In this document: positions 790 through 64,000 of the stretch, piece by piece | Position numbering within the stretch: position 1 is the stretch's first letter | How the letters are laid out: each line of letters starts with the position of its first letter | NCBI RefSeq assembly: GCF_001317355.1 | Contig: NZ_LKET01000039.1 | Span: forward strand, 350,574 to 414,573 | Source: Oxobacter pfennigii | Lineage (GTDB): Bacteria > Bacillota > Clostridia > Clostridiales > Oxobacteraceae | Reading direction: 5' to 3' | Length of the DNA stretch: 64,000 nucleotides | The notes under the pieces: generated by a model | What the model was told of the DNA's origin: nothing | Database searches by the model: none | Seen by the model: only the letters and a program-made list of their open reading frames with translations | Position numbers and translations under genes: made by a program

Positions 790-813
790 GGGACACAACT
801 TTAGTTGTGTCCC
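790..813. repeat. REP-like perfect palindrome GGGACACAAC-TTTA-GTTGTGTCCC, copy 1, 47 nt after the htrA stop
   Basis: 10-11 bp perfect inverted repeat. The same sequence recurs at 53183-53207 and 63973-64000. A half-site-like GGGGACGCAACT sits at 763-774. Confidence 0.7.
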
Positions 814-28771: not shown

Positions 28772-30050
28772 TCTTGAGATTATAAAGGAGTCCCAAAAAT
28801 ATATGCCGGGAGGAGTTAACAGTCCGGTAAGGGCTTTTAAGGATGTAACTATAAACCCGGCGGTTATTAAAAGGGGACAGGGCGCCTATGTGTTCGATGA
28901 AGAGGGCAATCAATATACCGATTATGTATGTGCCTGGGGACCTATGATTTTGGGCCATTGCGACGAGGATATTGTGGCAGCTATAAAGGATACGAGTGAA
29001 AATGCCATCGCCTTTGGAGCGCCTACATATTTGGAATTAAAGCTAGCCGAGCATATGTGCAGCACCTTGGATGGCGTGGATATGCTAAGGATGGTCAACT
29101 CGGGCACAGAAGCCACCATGAGTGCTATTAAACTGGCAAGAGGCTATACGGGAAGAGACAGGATTATAAAATTTGCAGGGTGCTATCATGGTCATTTTGA
29201 CGGATTTTTGGTCAGTGCAGGCTCAGGGGTTATGACTGAAGGCATTCCGGGAAGCGCAGGAGTTCCTGAGCTAAGTATAAAGAACACTTTGATAGCTTCA
29301 TATAATGATATAGAAAGCGTCAAATTGCTGTTCGAAAATTACAGTGATGAAATTGCGGCTATTATTATTGAGCCGGTAGCCGGGAATATGGGTGTAGTGG
29401 CGGCAGATAAGGAATTTTTATCAGGTGTAAGGGATCTTTGCGATAAATACGGGAGCCTTTTGATATTTGACGAGGTAATGTCGGGATTCAGGGTGGCATA
29501 TAAAGGAGCTATGAGTTTATACGGCATTAAGCCTGATTTAGTCACCTTTGCTAAAATAATGGGCGGCGGTCTTCCCTGCGGTGCATATGGCGGCAGAAGA
29601 GACATAATGGAGAAACTATCCCCTCTTGGGCCGGTGTATCAGGCAGGCACCATGTCAGGAAACCCAATCGTCATGGCGGCAGGATATGCAACTTTGACCA
29701 AGCTATATAACAACCTTGATTATTATAGTCACCTGGAAAGTTTGGGTGCAAGGCTGGAGACGGGCATAAGAGAAGCGGCAGCAGAAATGGGACTTCCTGT
29801 GGTAATCAACCGTGTTGGGGCAATGATGACAATATTTTTTACCGAGCTTAATGAAGTTAAAAATTATGAGGATGCCAAGACCTGTGATACAAAACTTTAT
29901 GCCAAATACTTTGAGCACATGTTCAAAAACGGCATCAACATACCACCCTCCCAATTCGAAGCCTTGTTTATATCAGTAAAACACACTGGAGAGGACATCG
30001 ACTACTTCATCAAAACCTTCAAAAAGCTGGGGGACAGTTCATTCCGTTGA
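28764..30050 (+). CDS. hemL: glutamate-1-semialdehyde 2,1-aminomutase
   Basis: Class-III aminotransferase with the HemL N-terminus. 428 aa. Confidence 0.9.
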
Positions 30051-30162
30051 TTCTTTTTCACAAGTTCATAAGGGGACGGTTCAACCTGTTATATCATATA
30101 GTATAATAATGCCACTTTTGGTTAAACTAACAATACAATAGTAACTAAAGGTGGTGTTTTCT

Positions 30163-31077
30163 ATGCCAAGATGTGCCAGAGAAAAAAGTTTGGACAGCGT
30201 ATATCACGTAATGGTCCGCAGTATTGCCGAAATTAATTTGTTTACAGACCACGCTGACAAAGACGTATATATGAGGCTTTTAAAAAGATATAAGGATATT
30301 TATCTGTTTAAGGTTTATGGCTTTTGTCTCATGGAAACTCACGGACATATAATAATCGACGTACAGGGTGCTGACATATCAAGGATAATGCACGGAGTGA
30401 ATCAAAGCTATGCCTGGTATTACAACCATAGGCACAAACGTCATGGTCACTTGTTTCAGGACAGGTTCAAAAGCAAAATCGTATCAGATGACAGGTACCT
30501 TATAACTTTATCAGCATACATACATAATAATACTCAAGATATTGAAGGTTACGAAAACCAGGTAGAAAAATATGAATACTCAAGCTTAGGAATATATTTA
30601 GGCAGCATGGAAAATAAATATGGCCTGGTGGACAAAGAGTTTATATTAAGCCAGATAAGCTATAATACTGCTATTGCAAAGAAGCAGTACCTTGAATTGG
30701 TATATAGAGATAACCCGGATATAATTCCCGATGATGCAGAGTTTAAAAATGAAAAGGCACAATACAGATCCGAGAGAAAAGTAATCGTAAGAAGCTTCAG
30801 ACCGGATGAAGTGGTGAGCTTTGTTGAAAACTATATAAAGCAGTATAATACAAACATCAGTATAAAGTATACCAAGAAAAATATTGAGGCTAAGGCATTA
30901 TCAGTATTGCTTTTACGAGGGATATGTGATATGAAGCAGAAGGATATATGTGCCTTTATGGGAAACATAACCCAGTCTCACTCGGCAAAGCTGTGTGCCA
31001 GGGGTATAGATTTGTTGCAGCGGAAAAAGGAGTATATGAATATAGCCAAGGATTTCATACGAAGAAAAGCCGGATAA
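30163..31077 (+). CDS. RAYT/IS200-like HUH Y1 transposase-domain protein with a DnaA-C-like HTH C-terminus (probably domesticated)
   Basis: N-terminus MPRCAREKSLDSVYHVMVR, HuH motif METHGHIIID and catalytic Tyr block SAYIHNN. The C-terminal 70 aa resemble DnaA domain IV. AAAGGTGGTG RBS. Confidence 0.7.
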   Translation: MPRCAREKSLDSVYHVMVRSIAEINLFTDHADKDVYMRLLKRYKDIYLFKVYGFCLMETHGHIIIDVQGADISRIMHGVNQSYAWYYNHRHKRHGHLFQDRFKSKIVSDDRYLITLSAYIHNNTQDIEGYENQVEKYEYSSLGIYLGSMENKYGLVDKEFILSQISYNTAIAKKQYLELVYRDNPDIIPDDAEFKNEKAQYRSERKVIVRSFRPDEVVSFVENYIKQYNTNISIKYTKKNIEAKALSVLLLRGICDMKQKDICAFMGNITQSHSAKLCARGIDLLQRKKEYMNIAKDFIRRKAG

Positions 31078-31240
31078 CCTTGAAAGTATAGTATTTTAAG
31101 TATAATTTGGAGAAAAAGTTATTATATCTTTATAATTTTTTTAAAATGGTACAAGCCTTTAAAATTGCTTGTTTTGCAGTAGATTTTATATTTTTAAGTA
31201 CAGAAGCATCAAAAATATCCAGAAAAACCAGAAAAACCAT

Positions 31241-31297
31241 AGGGACGGTTCATGCCAAACTGTTGTTCTAAAACTCAAATTATGATGAACCGTCCCT
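31241..31297. repeat. 13-bp-stem hairpin AGGGACGGTTCAT...ATGAACCGTCCCT between convergent RAYT-like and floT genes (REP-like / bidirectional terminator)
   Basis: Perfect 13-bp inverted repeat. It shares the GGGACGGTTCA motif with 30073-30083 and with the 33571-33745 array. Confidence 0.6.
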
Positions 31298-31306
31298 AAG
31301 CCTTTA

Positions 31307-32695
31307 CTACCCTTCAGTTCCTATGGAATCCTCGGGGATTTCTTTTTTTGTCCCTGTAAGATAGTTTGGAAGCTCCAACCCCGCCATTTTGAAGACATCT
31401 TCATACGGAGGAATGGATTTCAGCATTCCCGACAGAAAATTAGCTGTGGATGGAGTGCCGCTGCCCCCCGACATGGAATCCCATACGGTGATCTTATCAA
31501 TCTTGATGTTCTTGATGGCTTCCACCTGAATTTTTGCAAGCTGTTCCATCTTATCAGCGATCATAAGGGCAACCGCATTCTTTGGATCGTTTCCTGCTGC
31601 CGCCACTATCTTTTCAAAACCCTCTGCCTGTTTGCTCAGTACTTCCATTACTCCTGTTGCTTCTGCCTGCATTTTAAACAAAATGGCGTCGGCTTCACCC
31701 TTTGCCCGGCGGCGGAGGGTTTCGGCCTGGGCTTCGGCATCTATTTCGGCTTTTTGTTTTTCAATTTCGGCGTGGATTATGACGTCTGCCGTCTTTGTGG
31801 CCCTTTCCCTTTCGGCACGGGCCATTTCCGCACTTTGCTCTGCGGAATATGCTTCTTCCAGGGCCTTTGCAGACTGTACCTTCTCAGCTGCAACCGCTCT
31901 CCTGTTGGCTTCAGCTTCCTTTTCCCTTTTTTCTGCCTCGGAATTTGCAATGGTTATCCTGGCCAGGTTTTCACCCTCAACAGCTTTGGAGTTTGCCTCC
32001 GATACCTGTATTCTCTGGTCCATTTGGGCATTTGCCTCACCTATGGAACCGTCGCGGTCTTTTTCAGCAACGCTCTTTTTGGCATCGTTAATAGCCTTGG
32101 ATGCGGCTTCTTTACCCAGGGCTTCAATATAACCGGATTCATCCTTTATGTCTGTAACGTTAACGTTTATAAGCTTTAAACCAATCTTTTTAAGTTCAGC
32201 CTCCACGTTTTTGGATACATTGGCTAAAAATTTATCTCTGTCTGAATTTATTTCCTCAATATCCATGGTGGCAATTACAAGCCTTAGCTGGCCAAATATA
32301 ATATCCTTTGCCAGTTCCTGTATATCCTTAAGCTGCAGCCCCAAGATTCTTTCCGCCGCATTTGGCATAACCTCGGGTTCCGTGGAAATACCTACGGTAA
32401 ATCTGGAAGGTACATCCACCCTTATGTTCTGTTTGCTCAATGCCTTGGTCAAATTTACTTCGATCGAAATCGGAGTCAAATCTAAAAATTCATAATTCTG
32501 TATAACAGGCCATACAAAGGCAGCTCCTCCATGGATGCATTTTGCAGACCTTGCCGTGCCGTCTCCGCTTCTTCCTATCTTACCATAAACAACGAGTACC
32601 TTATCGGACGGACATCTTTTAAATCTTAAAAACAGCATAATAACGGTTGATAGTATTGCCACTGCTATGACAGTGTATAAAATTATCTCATACAT
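31307..32695 (-). CDS. floT: flotillin-like SPFH/band-7 protein
   Basis: N-terminal TM, SPFH domain and a long Ala/Glu-rich flotillin repeat region. 462 aa. Confidence 0.85.
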   Translation of the reverse strand: MYEIILYTVIAVAILSTVIMLFLRFKRCPSDKVLVVYGKIGRSGDGTARSAKCIHGGAAFVWPVIQNYEFLDLTPISIEVNLTKALSKQNIRVDVPSRFTVGISTEPEVMPNAAERILGLQLKDIQELAKDIIFGQLRLVIATMDIEEINSDRDKFLANVSKNVEAELKKIGLKLINVNVTDIKDESGYIEALGKEAASKAINDAKKSVAEKDRDGSIGEANAQMDQRIQVSEANSKAVEGENLARITIANSEAEKREKEAEANRRAVAAEKVQSAKALEEAYSAEQSAEMARAERERATKTADVIIHAEIEKQKAEIDAEAQAETLRRRAKGEADAILFKMQAEATGVMEVLSKQAEGFEKIVAAAGNDPKNAVALMIADKMEQLAKIQVEAIKNIKIDKITVWDSMSGGSGTPSTANFLSGMLKSIPPYEDVFKMAGLELPNYLTGTKKEIPEDSIGTEG

Positions 32696-32713
32696 AAACT
32701 GACCCCCTTTTAA

Positions 32714-33349
32714 TTAATCGATATGATCTTCAACCAAATTTTCAACCAATAAAATTTGATTGTCGATTACGCCTATAACCTTAACTCTTTCTCCAGTAGG
32801 AATAGTTTTCCCATTGGTCATTGCATCTAATTCCCGGGATGTACCCTGCACTATCACCGTAACCTTTCCCACGCCATCCTTTGCCCCTGGAATGGTGAGA
32901 TACACTTCTCCCTTTGCATTTATTGCATTTTTAAGGTCCATTCCGCCGTATTCCGTCAAATTGGCGATGAAATAAAACAGGCTGCTTATAATCAGGCTGA
33001 CTATAAAACCTGCGCCACAGGAAAGCAGGACTTCAAGTATTTTATTCATATTAAATTTGTCAAGTACAATGCCGGTCCATGAAAATACGGTAAAGAAAAC
33101 AATGAAATTTCGCATGGTGAGAAGTCTAAAGGGAGAAGAGACATCATCGAAGGTATAGTCCTGGAAGCCGTCTGAATCCAGATATTCATGGATATCTCCC
33201 AAATTCTCATTTGAATCGCCAAAATCTCCGTGGTCACCAAGTCCTAAAAATGGCAGGAGGGTTTGAATTATAAAGAGAGTAGTAAAAGGAATCCCTATAT
33301 ACCAATATACTCTTTGATCACCCGGTATACTATTCCACCATTCAACCAT
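32714..33349 (-). CDS. nfeD: NfeD-like membrane protein (flotillin partner, YuaF-like)
   Basis: Membrane N-terminus plus C-terminal OB-fold (GERVKVIGVIDNQILLVE). Lies upstream of and coupled to floT. Confidence 0.75.
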   Translation of the reverse strand: MVEWWNSIPGDQRVYWYIGIPFTTLFIIQTLLPFLGLGDHGDFGDSNENLGDIHEYLDSDGFQDYTFDDVSSPFRLLTMRNFIVFFTVFSWTGIVLDKFNMNKILEVLLSCGAGFIVSLIISSLFYFIANLTEYGGMDLKNAINAKGEVYLTIPGAKDGVGKVTVIVQGTSRELDAMTNGKTIPTGERVKVIGVIDNQILLVENLVEDHID

Positions 33350-33570
33350 AATATCCCCCCTTAAAAGAAGCAGCTAATTTATTATGCTAAGAAAGCGAAC
33401 ATATTTATTATGATAGAAGGTATTAAAGAAAATGATCTTAAATATGGTTTTGTGCAGGCCCCTATTTAATTATAATCATAAAAGGTGAGTCCAGTCCACA
33501 AAATCAGCACAATTTAAAAGCAGATTTGCCCACGTCTACTTGATATAAATATTTTAAAGAGAAAGTAGGA

Positions 33571-33745
33571 TGAGCCGTCCCGTATTTTGTCAAAGAAAAA
33601 ATAGAATGAACCGTCCCTGTTGTTATGAACCGTATTTTGTCAAAGAAAAAATAGAATGAACCGTCCCTGTTGTTATGAACCGTCCCTGTTGTTACTGCTG
33701 TTGTTAAAAGAAAAAGTGGAGTGAACCGTCCCCTATTGTTATAAT
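33571..33745. repeat. tandem direct repeats (about 50-bp unit x 2.5, then a degenerate copy) containing 5 copies of the (A/G)TGAACCGTCCC / ATGAACCGT motif
   Basis: Unit GAACCGTATTTTGTCAAAGAAAAAATAGAATGAACCGTCCCTGTTGTTAT repeated. It lies in the divergent intergenic region of nfeD-floT and the NUDIX gene. Confidence 0.7.
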
Positions 33746-53182: not shown

Positions 53183-53207
53183 GGGATACAACTTTAGTTG
53201 TGTCTCC
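53183..53207. repeat. REP-like hairpin copy 2 (GGGGATACAACTTTAGTTGTGTCTCC), 9 nt after the permease stop
   Basis: Same palindrome as 790-813. Its two substitutions keep pairing as G-U wobbles only in the + strand transcript. Confidence 0.65.
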
Positions 53208-63972: not shown

Positions 63973-64000
63973 CGGGACACAACTTTAGTTGTGTCCCGGT
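63973..64000. repeat. REP-like hairpin copy 3 (CCGGGACACAACTTTAGTTGTGTCCCGG), 50 nt after the rubrerythrin stop, at the window edge
   Basis: 12-bp perfect stem, same core as 790-813. Confidence 0.65.

What the first reader, a model, noticed from the sequence alone, without database searches (positions are those of the whole stretch)
30163..31077. Single-copy RAYT/IS200-like Y1 HUH protein fused to a DnaA-C-like HTH, flanked by GGGACGGTTCA motifs
A 304-aa protein has the HuH (HGHIIID) and catalytic Tyr (YIHNN) blocks of IS200/RAYT Y1 transposases, plus a C-terminal domain resembling DnaA domain IV. It has no IS ends and no TnpB, and there is only one copy in 64 kb, so it looks domesticated rather than an active IS.

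The motif GGGACGGTTCA occurs 100 nt upstream (30073-30083). It occurs as a perfect 13-bp-stem hairpin 165 nt downstream (31241-31297). It occurs five more times in a tandem array 2.3 kb away (33571-33745).

RAYTs are known to bind and cleave their cognate REP hairpins. This locus may therefore be a RAYT-REP pair with a REP unit different from the GGGACACAAC palindrome, or the protein may use the hairpins as regulatory sites.
Basis: partly seen in the sequence, partly recalled or inferred. Interest (0 to 1): 0.75.

Follow-up and report, generated by a model that had tools for sequence, protein, structure and literature searches.

The report
Clostridial RAYT-like transposase with inverted-repeat ends
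This is an intact copy of a known but never experimentally studied kind of bacterial transposase gene (a RAYT-like "TIRYT"), and the repeated GGGACGGTTCA motif is its own inverted-repeat ends plus extra end copies left nearby, so it is a clean example rather than a new kind of system.

Summary
Window 30163-31077 (Oxobacter pfennigii) encodes a 304-aa protein with a Y1 HuH nuclease core. Its best structural match is the E. coli REP-associated transposase 4ER8. The C-terminal domain is a DnaA-domain-IV-like HTH. All nine GGGACGGTTCA-type sites in 64 kb lie within 3.7 kb of the gene.

The claim of "no IS ends" is wrong, because the motif is the end. In 50 of 69 homologous clostridial loci the gene is bracketed by inverted GGGAC[G/A]GTT[A/C]A repeats, about 110 nt upstream and 236 nt downstream. 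In Fervidicella, at least seven gene copies were found, and in the six with readable flanks homology starts at GGGAC or stops at GTCCC. In many relatives the same core is a dispersed, extragenic repeat, about 40-fold over-represented. It often forms perfect palindromes or tandem arrays like the one at 33571-33732.

This matches the published TIRYT/TIRtron class, also described as RAYT Group 1 or Y1 subclass 2.1. That class is known only from computation. The locus is therefore a new member of a known kind.

Some lineages inherit the gene vertically at a fixed site, and others multiply it. Whether the O. pfennigii copy still moves is unknown. The cleavage mechanism is inferred, not shown.

The parts
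30030..30041 (+). Extra left-end-type copy, GGGGACAGTTCA. It matches the published TIRYT motif GGGGWSAS 8/8 and overlaps the last codons of hemL.
   Evidence: (one-mismatch hit at 30031-30041) and the sequence. The HemL region conserved with solved structures ends before these codons.
30072..30083 (+). Left terminal inverted repeat, GGGGACGGTTCA (core GGGACGGTT). It lies 90 nt upstream of the ATG.
   Evidence: It is the best inverted-repeat partner of the downstream flank. The position matches the family median of -111.
30080..30107 (+). Promoter-like TTCAAC, 16 nt, TATAAT. The first hexamer lies inside the left repeat.
   Evidence: Read from the sequence. This arrangement is not conserved across the family (14% against 5% in controls), so it is tentative.
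30108..30158 (+). Predicted 5' leader RNA hairpin that pairs the Shine-Dalgarno sequence AAAGGTGG (30147-30154).
   Evidence: paired probability 0.975 against 0.675 in shuffles, with 0 of 30 shuffles reaching the observed value. Similar hairpins occur in the Fervidicella copies, and 15 of 48 loci are significant. The transcription start is not known.
30163..31077 (+). Y1-HTH gene, 304 aa. The RAYT-like HuH/Tyr nuclease spans about residues 1-165 (HuH at nt 30340-30348, Tyr at nt 30517-30519). The DnaA-domain-IV-like HTH spans about residues 205-304 (nt 30775-31074).
31148..31156 (+). Conserved box GGTACAAGC (family consensus TG[G/T]ACAAGC), 72 nt after the stop codon. Function unknown.
   Evidence: ACAAGC is present in the 250 nt after the stop in 43 of 71 loci, against 3-8% of control windows.
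31240..31297 (.). Right-end hairpin. An internal + copy (31240-31253) pairs with the right terminal inverted repeat (31284-31297; the element ends at GTCCC, 31296). The stem is 14 bp and the loop 30 nt.
   Evidence: (I2). The right end at +219 matches the family median of +236.
33571..33733 (-). Tandem array of solo right-end copies. There are four exact copies, one with one mismatch and one truncated, at spacings of 36, 50, 19 and 46 nt. It includes a perfect 50-bp duplication. The outermost copy forms a perfect 13-nt inverted repeat with the left end (30071-30083 / 33722-33734).
   Evidence: D1-D3, I15. The array units are 66-75% identical to the true right end at 31266-31297 (D2). Similar arrays occur in relatives.

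Best explanation
**What it is**
The locus is a resident copy of a clostridial TIRYT/TIRtron-type element. It is a RAYT-like single-tyrosine HuH nuclease gene with a C-terminal DnaA-domain-IV-like HTH. The gene is bounded by terminal inverted repeats 5'-GGGACGGTTCA ... TGAACCGTCCC-3' at 30073-31296, giving a unit of 1224 bp.

**What the other motif copies are**
They are satellites of the same ends.
- A second left-type copy lies in the hemL tail.
- An internal copy turns the right end into a hairpin.
- An array of solo right ends lies 2.3 kb downstream, beyond an SPFH/flotillin-like gene and a small membrane-protein gene.

**What is shown across the family**
- The ends are exactly GGGAC and GTCCC.
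- The whole unit has multiplied in some genomes.
- The end sequence also exists as gene-less extragenic palindromes and tandem arrays that co-vary with the local gene's ends.

**What is inferred**
- In single-stranded DNA, a left and a right end pair into a stem. This happens readily in the short palindromes and as a panhandle in the full element.
- The HTH binds the double-stranded 9-bp GGGACRGTT core of that stem, or of duplex ends.
- The Y1 domain cuts at the foot of the stem, 5' of GGGAC and 3' of GTCCC, and rejoins the strands, as in IS608/RAYT-type peel-and-paste.
- Expression is probably kept low by a leader hairpin that hides the ribosome-binding site.

Whether the O. pfennigii copy still moves, or only maintains its repeats, cannot be told from the sequence.
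For: **Protein**
- Y1_Tnp matches at E=1.8e-13.
- The top PDB fold match is 4er8_A, the RAYT-REP hairpin complex (TM 0.73 over 161 columns), ahead of the IS608 and ISDra2 TnpA structures.
- DnaA domain IV (1j1v) matches at TM 0.80.
- 10 of 20 homologs hit Bac_DnaA_C.
- The HuH and Tyr residues are invariant.

**Ends**
- The motif is confined to the gene's neighbourhood.
- The best inverted repeat found de novo between the two flanks is a GGGAC[G/A]GTT-type (GGGACGGTT-like) repeat in most loci.
- 50 of 69 usable loci have a GGGAC..GTCCC repeat pair matching at 11 or more of 16 positions. The swapped-orientation control gives 2 of 69, and shuffles give 1 of 1380.
- Orientation is polar. Upstream there are 87 + and 14 - copies; downstream there are 68 - and 9 +.

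**Mobility**
- Fervidicella copies are 85-92% identical, with boundaries exactly at GGGAC and GTCCC in different contexts.
- Several genomes hold 2 or more loci.

**Satellites**
- The core occurs 245 times in 1.12 Mb outside the elements, against a mean of 6.5 for permuted motifs.
- Density stays at about 0.2 per kb out to 10 kb, and copies match their own locus's ends.
- Only 18% of copies lie inside ORFs that cover 80% of the sequence.
- 46-bp perfect palindromes occur in C. ganghwense and C. thermopalmarium.
- Hairpin-oriented pairs outnumber the opposite arrangement 44 to 6.
- The window hairpin is stable as ssDNA.

**Leader hairpin:**

**Literature**
- TIRYT/TIRtron with the GGGGWSAS repeats: PMC3733652.
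- Subclass 2.1.2 with Bac_DnaA_C-like C-termini: PMC6006769.
- RAYT Group 1 present in Clostridia and the most IS-like RAYT group: PMC5581495.
Against: - No biochemical data exist for any TIRYT. Strand choice, cleavage sites and the role of the HTH are inferred.
- In the 64-kb window the motif is not dispersed: there are no copies outside 30031-33732. In O. pfennigii itself the REP-like side is therefore not shown.
- The genome-wide count could not be made, because the genome scan did not return this genome.
- No target-site duplication or common target sequence was seen.
- 19 of 69 loci lack a recognisable GGGAC repeat pair.
- The protein scores below NCBI's RAYT equivalog cut-off, 42.8 against 80 bits.
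- An alignment profile found no PDB sequence match at E<=1.
- Placement among bona fide TIRYT sequences rests on architecture and repeat motif, not on a phylogeny.
Confidence: 0.75

Rival explanations
1. It is a fully domesticated RAYT-REP system. The gene no longer moves. It is a vertically inherited host gene that makes or maintains REP-like hairpins for a host purpose such as transcript ends or genome structure.
For: - Two relatives keep the gene at a syntenic site inside a type IV pilus cluster. The gene is 82% identical between them, and its neighbours are 81% and 76% identical.
- The catalytic residues are invariant.
- No close relatives are found on plasmids or phages.
- Dispersed extragenic palindromes exist in relatives.
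- RAYTs in general behave this way (PMC5581495).
Against: - The whole gene unit has multiplied, with exact repeat boundaries, in Fervidicella. Several other genomes hold 2-4 copies.
- O. pfennigii has two divergent paralogs.
- Genomic positions differ between species.
- No dispersed copies are seen in this 64-kb window.
Confidence: 0.3
2. The protein is a transposase-derived transcription factor. The HTH binds the GGGACGGTTCA sites as operators. These would control its own promoter and the neighbouring NUDIX and flotillin-like genes.
For: - The left copy overlaps a -35-like hexamer placed 16 nt before a perfect TATAAT.
- The array sits directly upstream of the NUDIX gene.
- The HTH is of a duplex-DNA-binding type.
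Against: - The repeat-to-promoter arrangement is not conserved in the family (14% against 5% in controls).
- Neighbouring genes differ between loci.
- The nuclease residues are invariant.
- Copies are dispersed, palindromic and mark the borders of multiplied units.
Confidence: 0.08
3. It is an ordinary IS200/IS605 insertion sequence.
For: Pfam Y1_Tnp matches, and NCBI names the protein 'transposase IS200 like'.
Against: - The protein is 304 aa with an extra HTH, whereas the solved IS200/IS608/ISDra2 TnpA chains matched are about 125-152 residues.
- The fold is closer to RAYT 4ER8 than to the IS608 or ISDra2 TnpA structures.
- The ends are inverted repeats. From my own knowledge of IS200/IS605, that family has subterminal hairpins on the same strand instead.
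- No tnpB lies next to the gene.
Confidence: 0.03
4. The hairpin and the iteron-like arrays form an origin for rolling-circle replication. The HuH protein would then be a replication initiator, like plasmid or CRESS-virus Rep, rather than a transposase.
For: - Direct-repeat arrays with a 19-50 nt period lie next to a hairpin.
- A HuH nuclease is combined with a duplex-binding domain.
Against: - The fold matches Y1 transposases, not Rep proteins.
- No helicase or other replicon genes are nearby.
- The units are chromosomal and about 1.2 kb, with inverted ends.
- No plasmid or phage relatives were found.
Confidence: 0.04

Closest known systems
TIRtron / TIRYT (Di Nocera et al. 2013, PMC3733652), equal to Y1 subclass 2.1.2 (Quentin et al. 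2018, PMC6006769), and probably RAYT Group 1 (Bertels et al. 2017, PMC5581495)
   Same: - It has a RAYT-like Y1 core plus a C-terminal Bac_DnaA_C-like HTH.
- The gene is flanked at fixed distances by inverted repeats carrying GGGGWSAS. Here that is GGGGACGG (7/8) at the left end and GGGGACAG (8/8) in the hemL-tail copy.
- In some genomes the repeats form moderately abundant families, as dimers or clusters.
- It behaves more like an IS than classical RAYTs do.
   Different: - The described examples are mostly Proteobacteria, Acidobacteria and Planctomycetes. This is a clostridial clade with a longer conserved end, GGGAC[G/A]GTT[A/C]A[C/T]AA.
- Quentin et al. found no REP-like sequences near subclass 2.1 genes. 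Here the ends also occur as extragenic palindromes and arrays.
- Other features seen here: 2-7 end copies per side, a conserved TG[G/T]ACAAGC box, and a leader hairpin over the ribosome-binding site. The passages of these papers that I read do not mention them.
- Membership rests on architecture and repeat motif, not on a tree.
E. coli TnpA_REP (RAYT) with REP/BIME sequences (PDB 4ER8; PMC3479197, PMC3333891)
   Same: - It is the best structural match to the N-terminal 160 residues.
- The nuclease gene is flanked by inverted copies of its cognate hairpin-forming repeat, and that repeat is extragenic and dispersed.
   Different: - E. coli RAYT is 165 aa with no HTH.
- Its REPs carry a GTAG tetranucleotide at the foot, whereas these carry GGGAC.
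- The protein scores below the NCBIfam RAYT equivalog cut-off.
- Here the gene-containing unit itself has multiplied in some genomes.
IS200/IS605 TnpA (IS608, ISDra2)
   Same: - It shares the Y1 HuH fold.
- No target-site duplication was seen at the ends examined here; from my own knowledge, IS200/IS605 elements make none either.
- From my own knowledge of IS200, the leader hairpin over the ribosome-binding site recalls the translational control of that element. This is a recollection, not a test.
   Different: - From my own knowledge, IS200/IS605 ends carry dissimilar subterminal hairpins on one strand and no inverted repeats.
- Its TnpA is small (the solved TnpA chains are about 125-152 residues) and, from my own knowledge, dimeric, and it is often accompanied by TnpB.
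REPIN-RAYT systems of Pseudomonas (Bertels and Rainey; PMC5581495, PMC8049555)
   Same: - Two inverted repeat units form a long hairpin as the likely mobile non-autonomous unit.
- The cognate single-copy gene is flanked by those units.
- Some lineages inherit it vertically.
   Different: It belongs to a different RAYT group, has a different repeat sequence, and in Clostridia has frequent tandem direct arrays and multi-copy genes.

Membership tests
TIRYT / TIRtron (Y1 subclass 2.1.2, RAYT Group 1) | RAYT-like Y1 HuH nuclease core with HuH and catalytic Tyr | tested here: met
   Pfam Y1_Tnp at E=1.8e-13. The top fold match is 4er8_A. H60/H62/Y119 are invariant.
TIRYT / TIRtron (Y1 subclass 2.1.2, RAYT Group 1) | C-terminal HTH extension of the Bac_DnaA_C, HTH_23 or HTH_28 type | tested here: met
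   10 of 20 homologs hit PF08299, best E=5.8e-7. The model matches DnaA domain IV, 1j1v at TM 0.80. The window protein alone gives no Pfam hit.
TIRYT / TIRtron (Y1 subclass 2.1.2, RAYT Group 1) | Gene flanked by terminal inverted repeats at similar distances | tested here: met
   In the window the repeats lie at 30073 (+) and 31296 (-). 50 of 69 loci have such a pair, against 2 of 69 in the swapped control and 1 of 1380 in shuffles. Median positions are -111 and +236.
TIRYT / TIRtron (Y1 subclass 2.1.2, RAYT Group 1) | Repeats carry the GGGGWSAS motif | tested here: met
   GGGGACAG at 30030-30037 matches 8/8, and GGGGACGG at 30072-30079 matches 7/8. In the family logo the sixth base of the GGGAC[G/A]GTT core (the consensus A of GGGGWSAS) is G in 38 and A in 13 left ends, and the base before GGGAC is G in 24 and A in 22.
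TIRYT / TIRtron (Y1 subclass 2.1.2, RAYT Group 1) | Clusters phylogenetically with described TIRYT / subclass 2.1 proteins | not tested
The supplements of PMC6006769 held as text list no Clostridium entries.
Canonical RAYT/REP (E. coli TnpA_REP type) | Meets the curated RAYT model (NCBIfam NF047646, equivalog) | tested here: not met
   42.8 bits against a cut-off of 80.
Canonical RAYT/REP (E. coli TnpA_REP type) | Cognate repeat is a high-copy, dispersed, extragenic palindrome in the same genome | tested here: inconclusive
   In the window there are no copies outside 30031-33732 in 64 kb, and the whole genome was not available. In relatives there are 245 copies in 1.12 Mb against 6.5 expected. 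These are extragenic, and some form perfect palindromes.
Canonical RAYT/REP (E. coli TnpA_REP type) | GTAG (or CGTC) tetranucleotide tag at the hairpin foot | tested here: not met
   The foot is GGGAC/GTCCC. CGTC is present only when the variable base is G, which holds for 38 of 51 ends.
IS200/IS605 | Small (about 130-150 aa) TnpA; subterminal hairpins on one strand at both ends; no inverted repeats | tested here: not met
   The protein is 304 aa with an HTH. The ends are inverted repeats. No tnpB is adjacent.
DnaA replication initiator | AAA+ domain III followed by domain IV; binds TTATCCACA boxes | tested here: not met
   Only a domain-IV-like fold is present. The repeat core GGGACGGTT is unlike the DnaA box (sequence; PMC6006769 makes the same point).

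The most novel reading that the evidence does not exclude
The clostridial clade may work in a hybrid way not described for any Y1 element.
- Each end would be an array of 9-bp GGGACRGTT boxes read as duplex DNA by the DnaA-domain-IV-like HTH, as in the multi-site ends of Tn7 or Mu.
- The Y1 domain would cut at the GGGAC/GTCCC feet of stems formed by paired ends.
- On this reading, distal end arrays that face the gene can bracket host genes. Here that is the flotillin-like gene and a membrane-protein gene; in L084 it is a DinB_2 gene. Such genes could become mobilisable cargo.
- The gene-less palindromes would be the first REPIN-like replicators documented for Clostridia and for subclass 2.1, where published searches found none.
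Probability: 0.2. Interest if true: 0.6.

Novelty: new member of a known kind. Interest (0 to 1): 0.35.

Why it matters
TIRYT / RAYT Group 1 proteins are widespread, but none has been studied at the bench. It is not known what the DnaA-like domain does, which DNA form is recognised, or how the flanking repeats spread.

This clostridial clade gives an unusually clear set of predictions:
- the termini are exact (GGGAC ... GTCCC);
- there is a conserved 9-bp core;
- gene-less palindromes and tandem end arrays co-vary with the gene's own ends;
- vertically inherited and multiplying lineages both exist.

That makes the binding and cleavage assays straightforward to design. It also tempers the published statement that subclass 2.1 genes have no REP-like sequences nearby.

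For annotating this window the result is ordinary. The gene is a known type of transposase-like gene, and the repeats belong to it.

Tried and rejected
1. **Left repeat as the gene's -35 across the family.** This was rejected: 14% of left ends have a good -10 at the right spacing, against 5% in offset controls. It may still hold in the window.
2. **Link between the window's other palindrome and this family or its paralog.**
   - The other palindrome is GGGACACAAC-TTTA-GTTGTGTCCC, and it shares the GGGAC feet.
   - A metagenome scan found 71 loci carrying it. None had a Y1-HTH homolog, and the GGGACRGTT core occurred only twice in 430 kb.
   - The paralog's contig could not be fetched.
   - No support was found.
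3. **Known RNA family or terminator.** Rfam gave nothing relevant, and the terminator scan does not pick up the hairpin.
4. **Defence system.** There were no PADLOC hits for the Y1-HTH gene, the flotillin-like gene or the membrane-protein gene, and only two marginal hits (E about 0.002-0.007) for the NUDIX protein.
5. **Plasmid or phage carriage.** Only distant matches to the N-terminal domain were found.
6. **Profile search of PDB sequences.** There were no hits at E<=1. The fold search was needed instead.
7. **Literature search by motif sequence.** It returned only unrelated primers.
8. **Target-site duplication or common target.** None was seen at the Fervidicella ends or in the family logo beyond a weak T-[A/G] | GGGAC symmetry.
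9. **Genome-wide motif census in O. pfennigii.** This was not possible. The single genome scan went to homolog loci and did not return this genome.
Full report
**Source and observation**

The window comes from Oxobacter pfennigii. The protein is 100% identical to an NCBI entry named 'transposase IS200 like protein'. The ORF at 30163-31077 is present. The mechanical ORF list starts it at GTG 30151. ATG 30163 gives the MPR... N-terminus shared by all homologs, and a Shine-Dalgarno sequence lies 7 nt upstream.

GGGACGGTTCA occurs 9 times in 64 kb with at most one mismatch, against 0.5 expected, and no shuffle reaches 9. All copies lie between 30031 and 33732.

- The hairpin has a 14-bp stem (31240-31253 / 31284-31297). 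It is stable as single-stranded DNA at -14.9 and -16.4 kcal/mol, z = -5.3 and -6.0.
- The array has four exact copies, one copy with one mismatch and one truncated copy. It includes a perfect 50-bp duplication and has no structure of its own.
It sits in the last codons of hemL, beyond the part of HemL that is conserved with solved structures.

**The protein**

- Pfam Y1_Tnp matches residues 13-123 at E=1.8e-13.
- The only NCBIfam hit is the RAYT equivalog, at 42.8 bits against a cut-off of 80.
- In a 20-sequence alignment, H60, H62 (HuH) and Y119 are invariant.
- The window protein has no Pfam hit for the C-terminus, but 10 of 20 homologs hit Bac_DnaA_C, best E=5.8e-7.
- An AlphaFold model was built from that alignment (pLDDT 83.4). 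Its best PDB match is 4er8_A, the E. coli REP-associated transposase bound to a REP hairpin (TM 0.73 over 161 columns). The IS608 and ISDra2 transposases rank below it.
- The C-terminal helices of the model match DnaA domain IV: 1j1v at TM 0.80 and rmsd 2.4, and 3pvp at TM 0.75.
- A sequence profile alone found nothing in the PDB.

**The motif is the element's end**

A genome scan with the alignment returned 80 clostridial loci. More loci came from exact-protein look-ups.

- The best inverted repeat found de novo between the upstream and downstream flanks is a GGGAC[G/A]GTT-type repeat in most loci.
- With a fixed criterion (GGGAC upstream, GTCCC downstream, at least 11 of 16 positions matching), 50 of 69 usable loci qualify. 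The swapped-orientation control gives 2 of 69, and shuffled flanks give 1 of 1380.
- The consensus is [G/A]GGGAC[G>A]GTT[A/C]A[C/T]AA. The median positions are -111 from the start and +236 from the stop, and the median unit length is 1256 bp.
- The window fits this pattern at -90 and +219, giving 1224 bp.
- Near the gene, copies are strongly polar: 87 + and 14 - upstream, and 68 - and 9 + downstream. Two to seven copies per side are common.

**Mobility**

In Fervidicella metallireducens at least seven copies exist, several at contig ends. They are 85-92% identical at the DNA level. Their similarity starts exactly at GGGAC and stops exactly at GTCCC, in unrelated surroundings. No target duplication is seen. 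The bounded unit has therefore multiplied as a whole.

**Satellite copies**

- Outside the units (more than 700 nt from the gene), the 9-bp core occurs 245 times in 1.12 Mb. Composition-matched permuted motifs give a mean of 6.5 and a maximum of 21.
- Density stays at about 0.2 per kb out to 10 kb.
- Copies match the ends of their own locus better than those of other loci: 5.68 against 3.89 of 7 variable positions.
- Only 18% of copies lie within ORFs of 150 aa or more, although such ORFs cover 80% of the flanks.
- Adjacent pairs are hairpin-oriented (44) or tandem (82), and rarely the opposite inverted arrangement (6).
- C. ganghwense and C. thermopalmarium carry perfect 46-bp palindromes made of a left plus a right end.
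- The closest relatives of the window protein (55-59% identity) have arrays with a period of about 20 nt (2-5 copies spaced roughly 20-50 nt) on the upstream side and 1-7 copies on the downstream side.
- Polarity towards the gene persists for several kb: 89 + and 49 - upstream against 40 + and 70 - downstream, p = 1.3e-5.

The window's distal right-end array fits a family pattern. In L084 a DinB_2 gene lies between the gene and its right-end array. In the 82%-identical syntenic L087 the array follows the gene directly.

**Inheritance**

L084 and L087 keep the gene at the same place inside a type IV pilus cluster. The gene is 82% identical between them, and its neighbours are 81% and 76% identical. 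This shows vertical inheritance under ordinary constraint in that lineage. Other species have the gene elsewhere. Many genomes hold several copies. O. pfennigii has a 60%-identical paralog. No close full-length relatives are found on plasmids or phages.

**Other anatomy**

- A box, TG[G/T]ACAAGC, lies about 80 nt after the stop in 43 of 71 loci, against 3-8% of control windows. The window copy is at 31148-31156. Its function is unknown.
- The window's 5' leader is predicted to pair the Shine-Dalgarno sequence (probability 0.975, with 0 of 30 shuffles reaching it). The Fervidicella copies do the same, and 15 of 48 loci are significant.
- The window has TTCAAC, 16 nt, then TATAAT, with the first hexamer inside the left repeat. 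This arrangement is not conserved in the family.

**Mechanism**

Shown:
- the exact termini;
- the inverted orientation of the ends;
- multiplication of the whole unit;
- cognate, extragenic palindromes and arrays;
- the two protein domains.

Inferred:
- paired ends form a stem in single-stranded DNA;
- the HTH binds the duplex 9-bp core;
- the Y1 domain cuts and rejoins at the foot of the stem, by analogy with IS608 and E. coli RAYT.

**Comparison with the literature**

- Di Nocera et al. (PMC3733652) defined TIRtrons and TIRYTs: RAYT-like genes flanked by inverted repeats that share GGGGWSAS, sometimes with repeat families arranged in dimers or clusters.
- Quentin et al. (PMC6006769) placed most TIRYTs in Y1 subclass 2.1. 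Subgroup 2.1.2 carries Bac_DnaA_C-like C-termini. They reported no REP-like sequences near these genes.
- Bertels et al. (PMC5581495) noted that RAYT Group 1 occurs in Clostridia and is the most IS-like RAYT group.
- The window's repeats read GGGGACGG and GGGGACAG, which fit GGGGWSAS.

The locus is therefore a new member of a known, computationally defined kind. Placement by phylogeny was not tested.

**Dead ends**

These are listed under Tried and rejected. In particular, the second palindrome family in the window (GGGACACAAC...) could not be tied to this gene family.

**Verdict**

Novelty is low to moderate. The main value is as a clean model for testing how TIRYT-type nucleases and their repeats work.

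Noticed in passing
window 790-813, 63974-63997 (perfect); 53183-53206 (degenerate); partial copy at 764-775: A second palindrome family, GGGACACAAC-TTTA-GTTGTGTCCC, shares the GGGAC/GTCCC feet. A metagenome scan found 71 loci with this palindrome. Five have the identical centre, in contigs of 31-33% GC. No Y1-HTH gene and almost no GGGACRGTT cores occur near them. Its nature is unknown.
   Followed up: partly
window 30030-30050: The last six codons of hemL (GDSSFR) lie beyond the region conserved with solved HemL structures. They are encoded by a left-end-type motif copy. An end copy may have replaced the original 3' end of hemL.
   Followed up: partly
window 31148-31156; relatives about 50-190 nt after the stop codon: A conserved box, TG[G/T]ACAAGC, lies inside the element in 43 of 71 loci, against 3-8% of control windows. 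Its TGGACAA core is 6/7 identical to the reverse complement of a DnaA box (TGGATAA). Its function is untested.
   Followed up: partly
window 30108-30158: The predicted leader RNA hairpin pairs the Shine-Dalgarno sequence of the Y1-HTH gene. The same is seen in the Fervidicella copies, and 15 of 48 loci are significant.
   Followed up: partly
window 33580-33629 and 33630-33679: A perfect 50-bp tandem duplication lies inside the right-end array, which suggests recent change (D1).
   Followed up: no
window 30071-30083 and 33722-33734; L084 9785-12137: The outermost array copy forms a perfect 13-nt inverted repeat with the left end. Together they bracket the Y1-HTH gene, an SPFH/flotillin-like gene (31307-32695) and a 211-aa membrane-protein gene (32714-33349). 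In L084 a DinB_2 gene lies likewise between the gene and its only right-end array, whereas the syntenic L087 lacks it.
   Followed up: partly
loci L004-L087, 1-10 kb from the gene: End copies keep facing the gene well beyond the element: 89 + and 49 - upstream against 40 + and 70 - downstream, p = 1.3e-5. This is unexplained.
   Followed up: partly
L006 9799-9999 and about 12161 onward: One Fervidicella locus has a 99-nt tandem duplication of the left end and a second full element 2.2 kb downstream.
   Followed up: partly
Genome-contig scan: The scan returned 80 relatives but not the O. pfennigii locus itself. Copy number and motif census in that genome therefore rest only on the protein search.
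   Followed up: no
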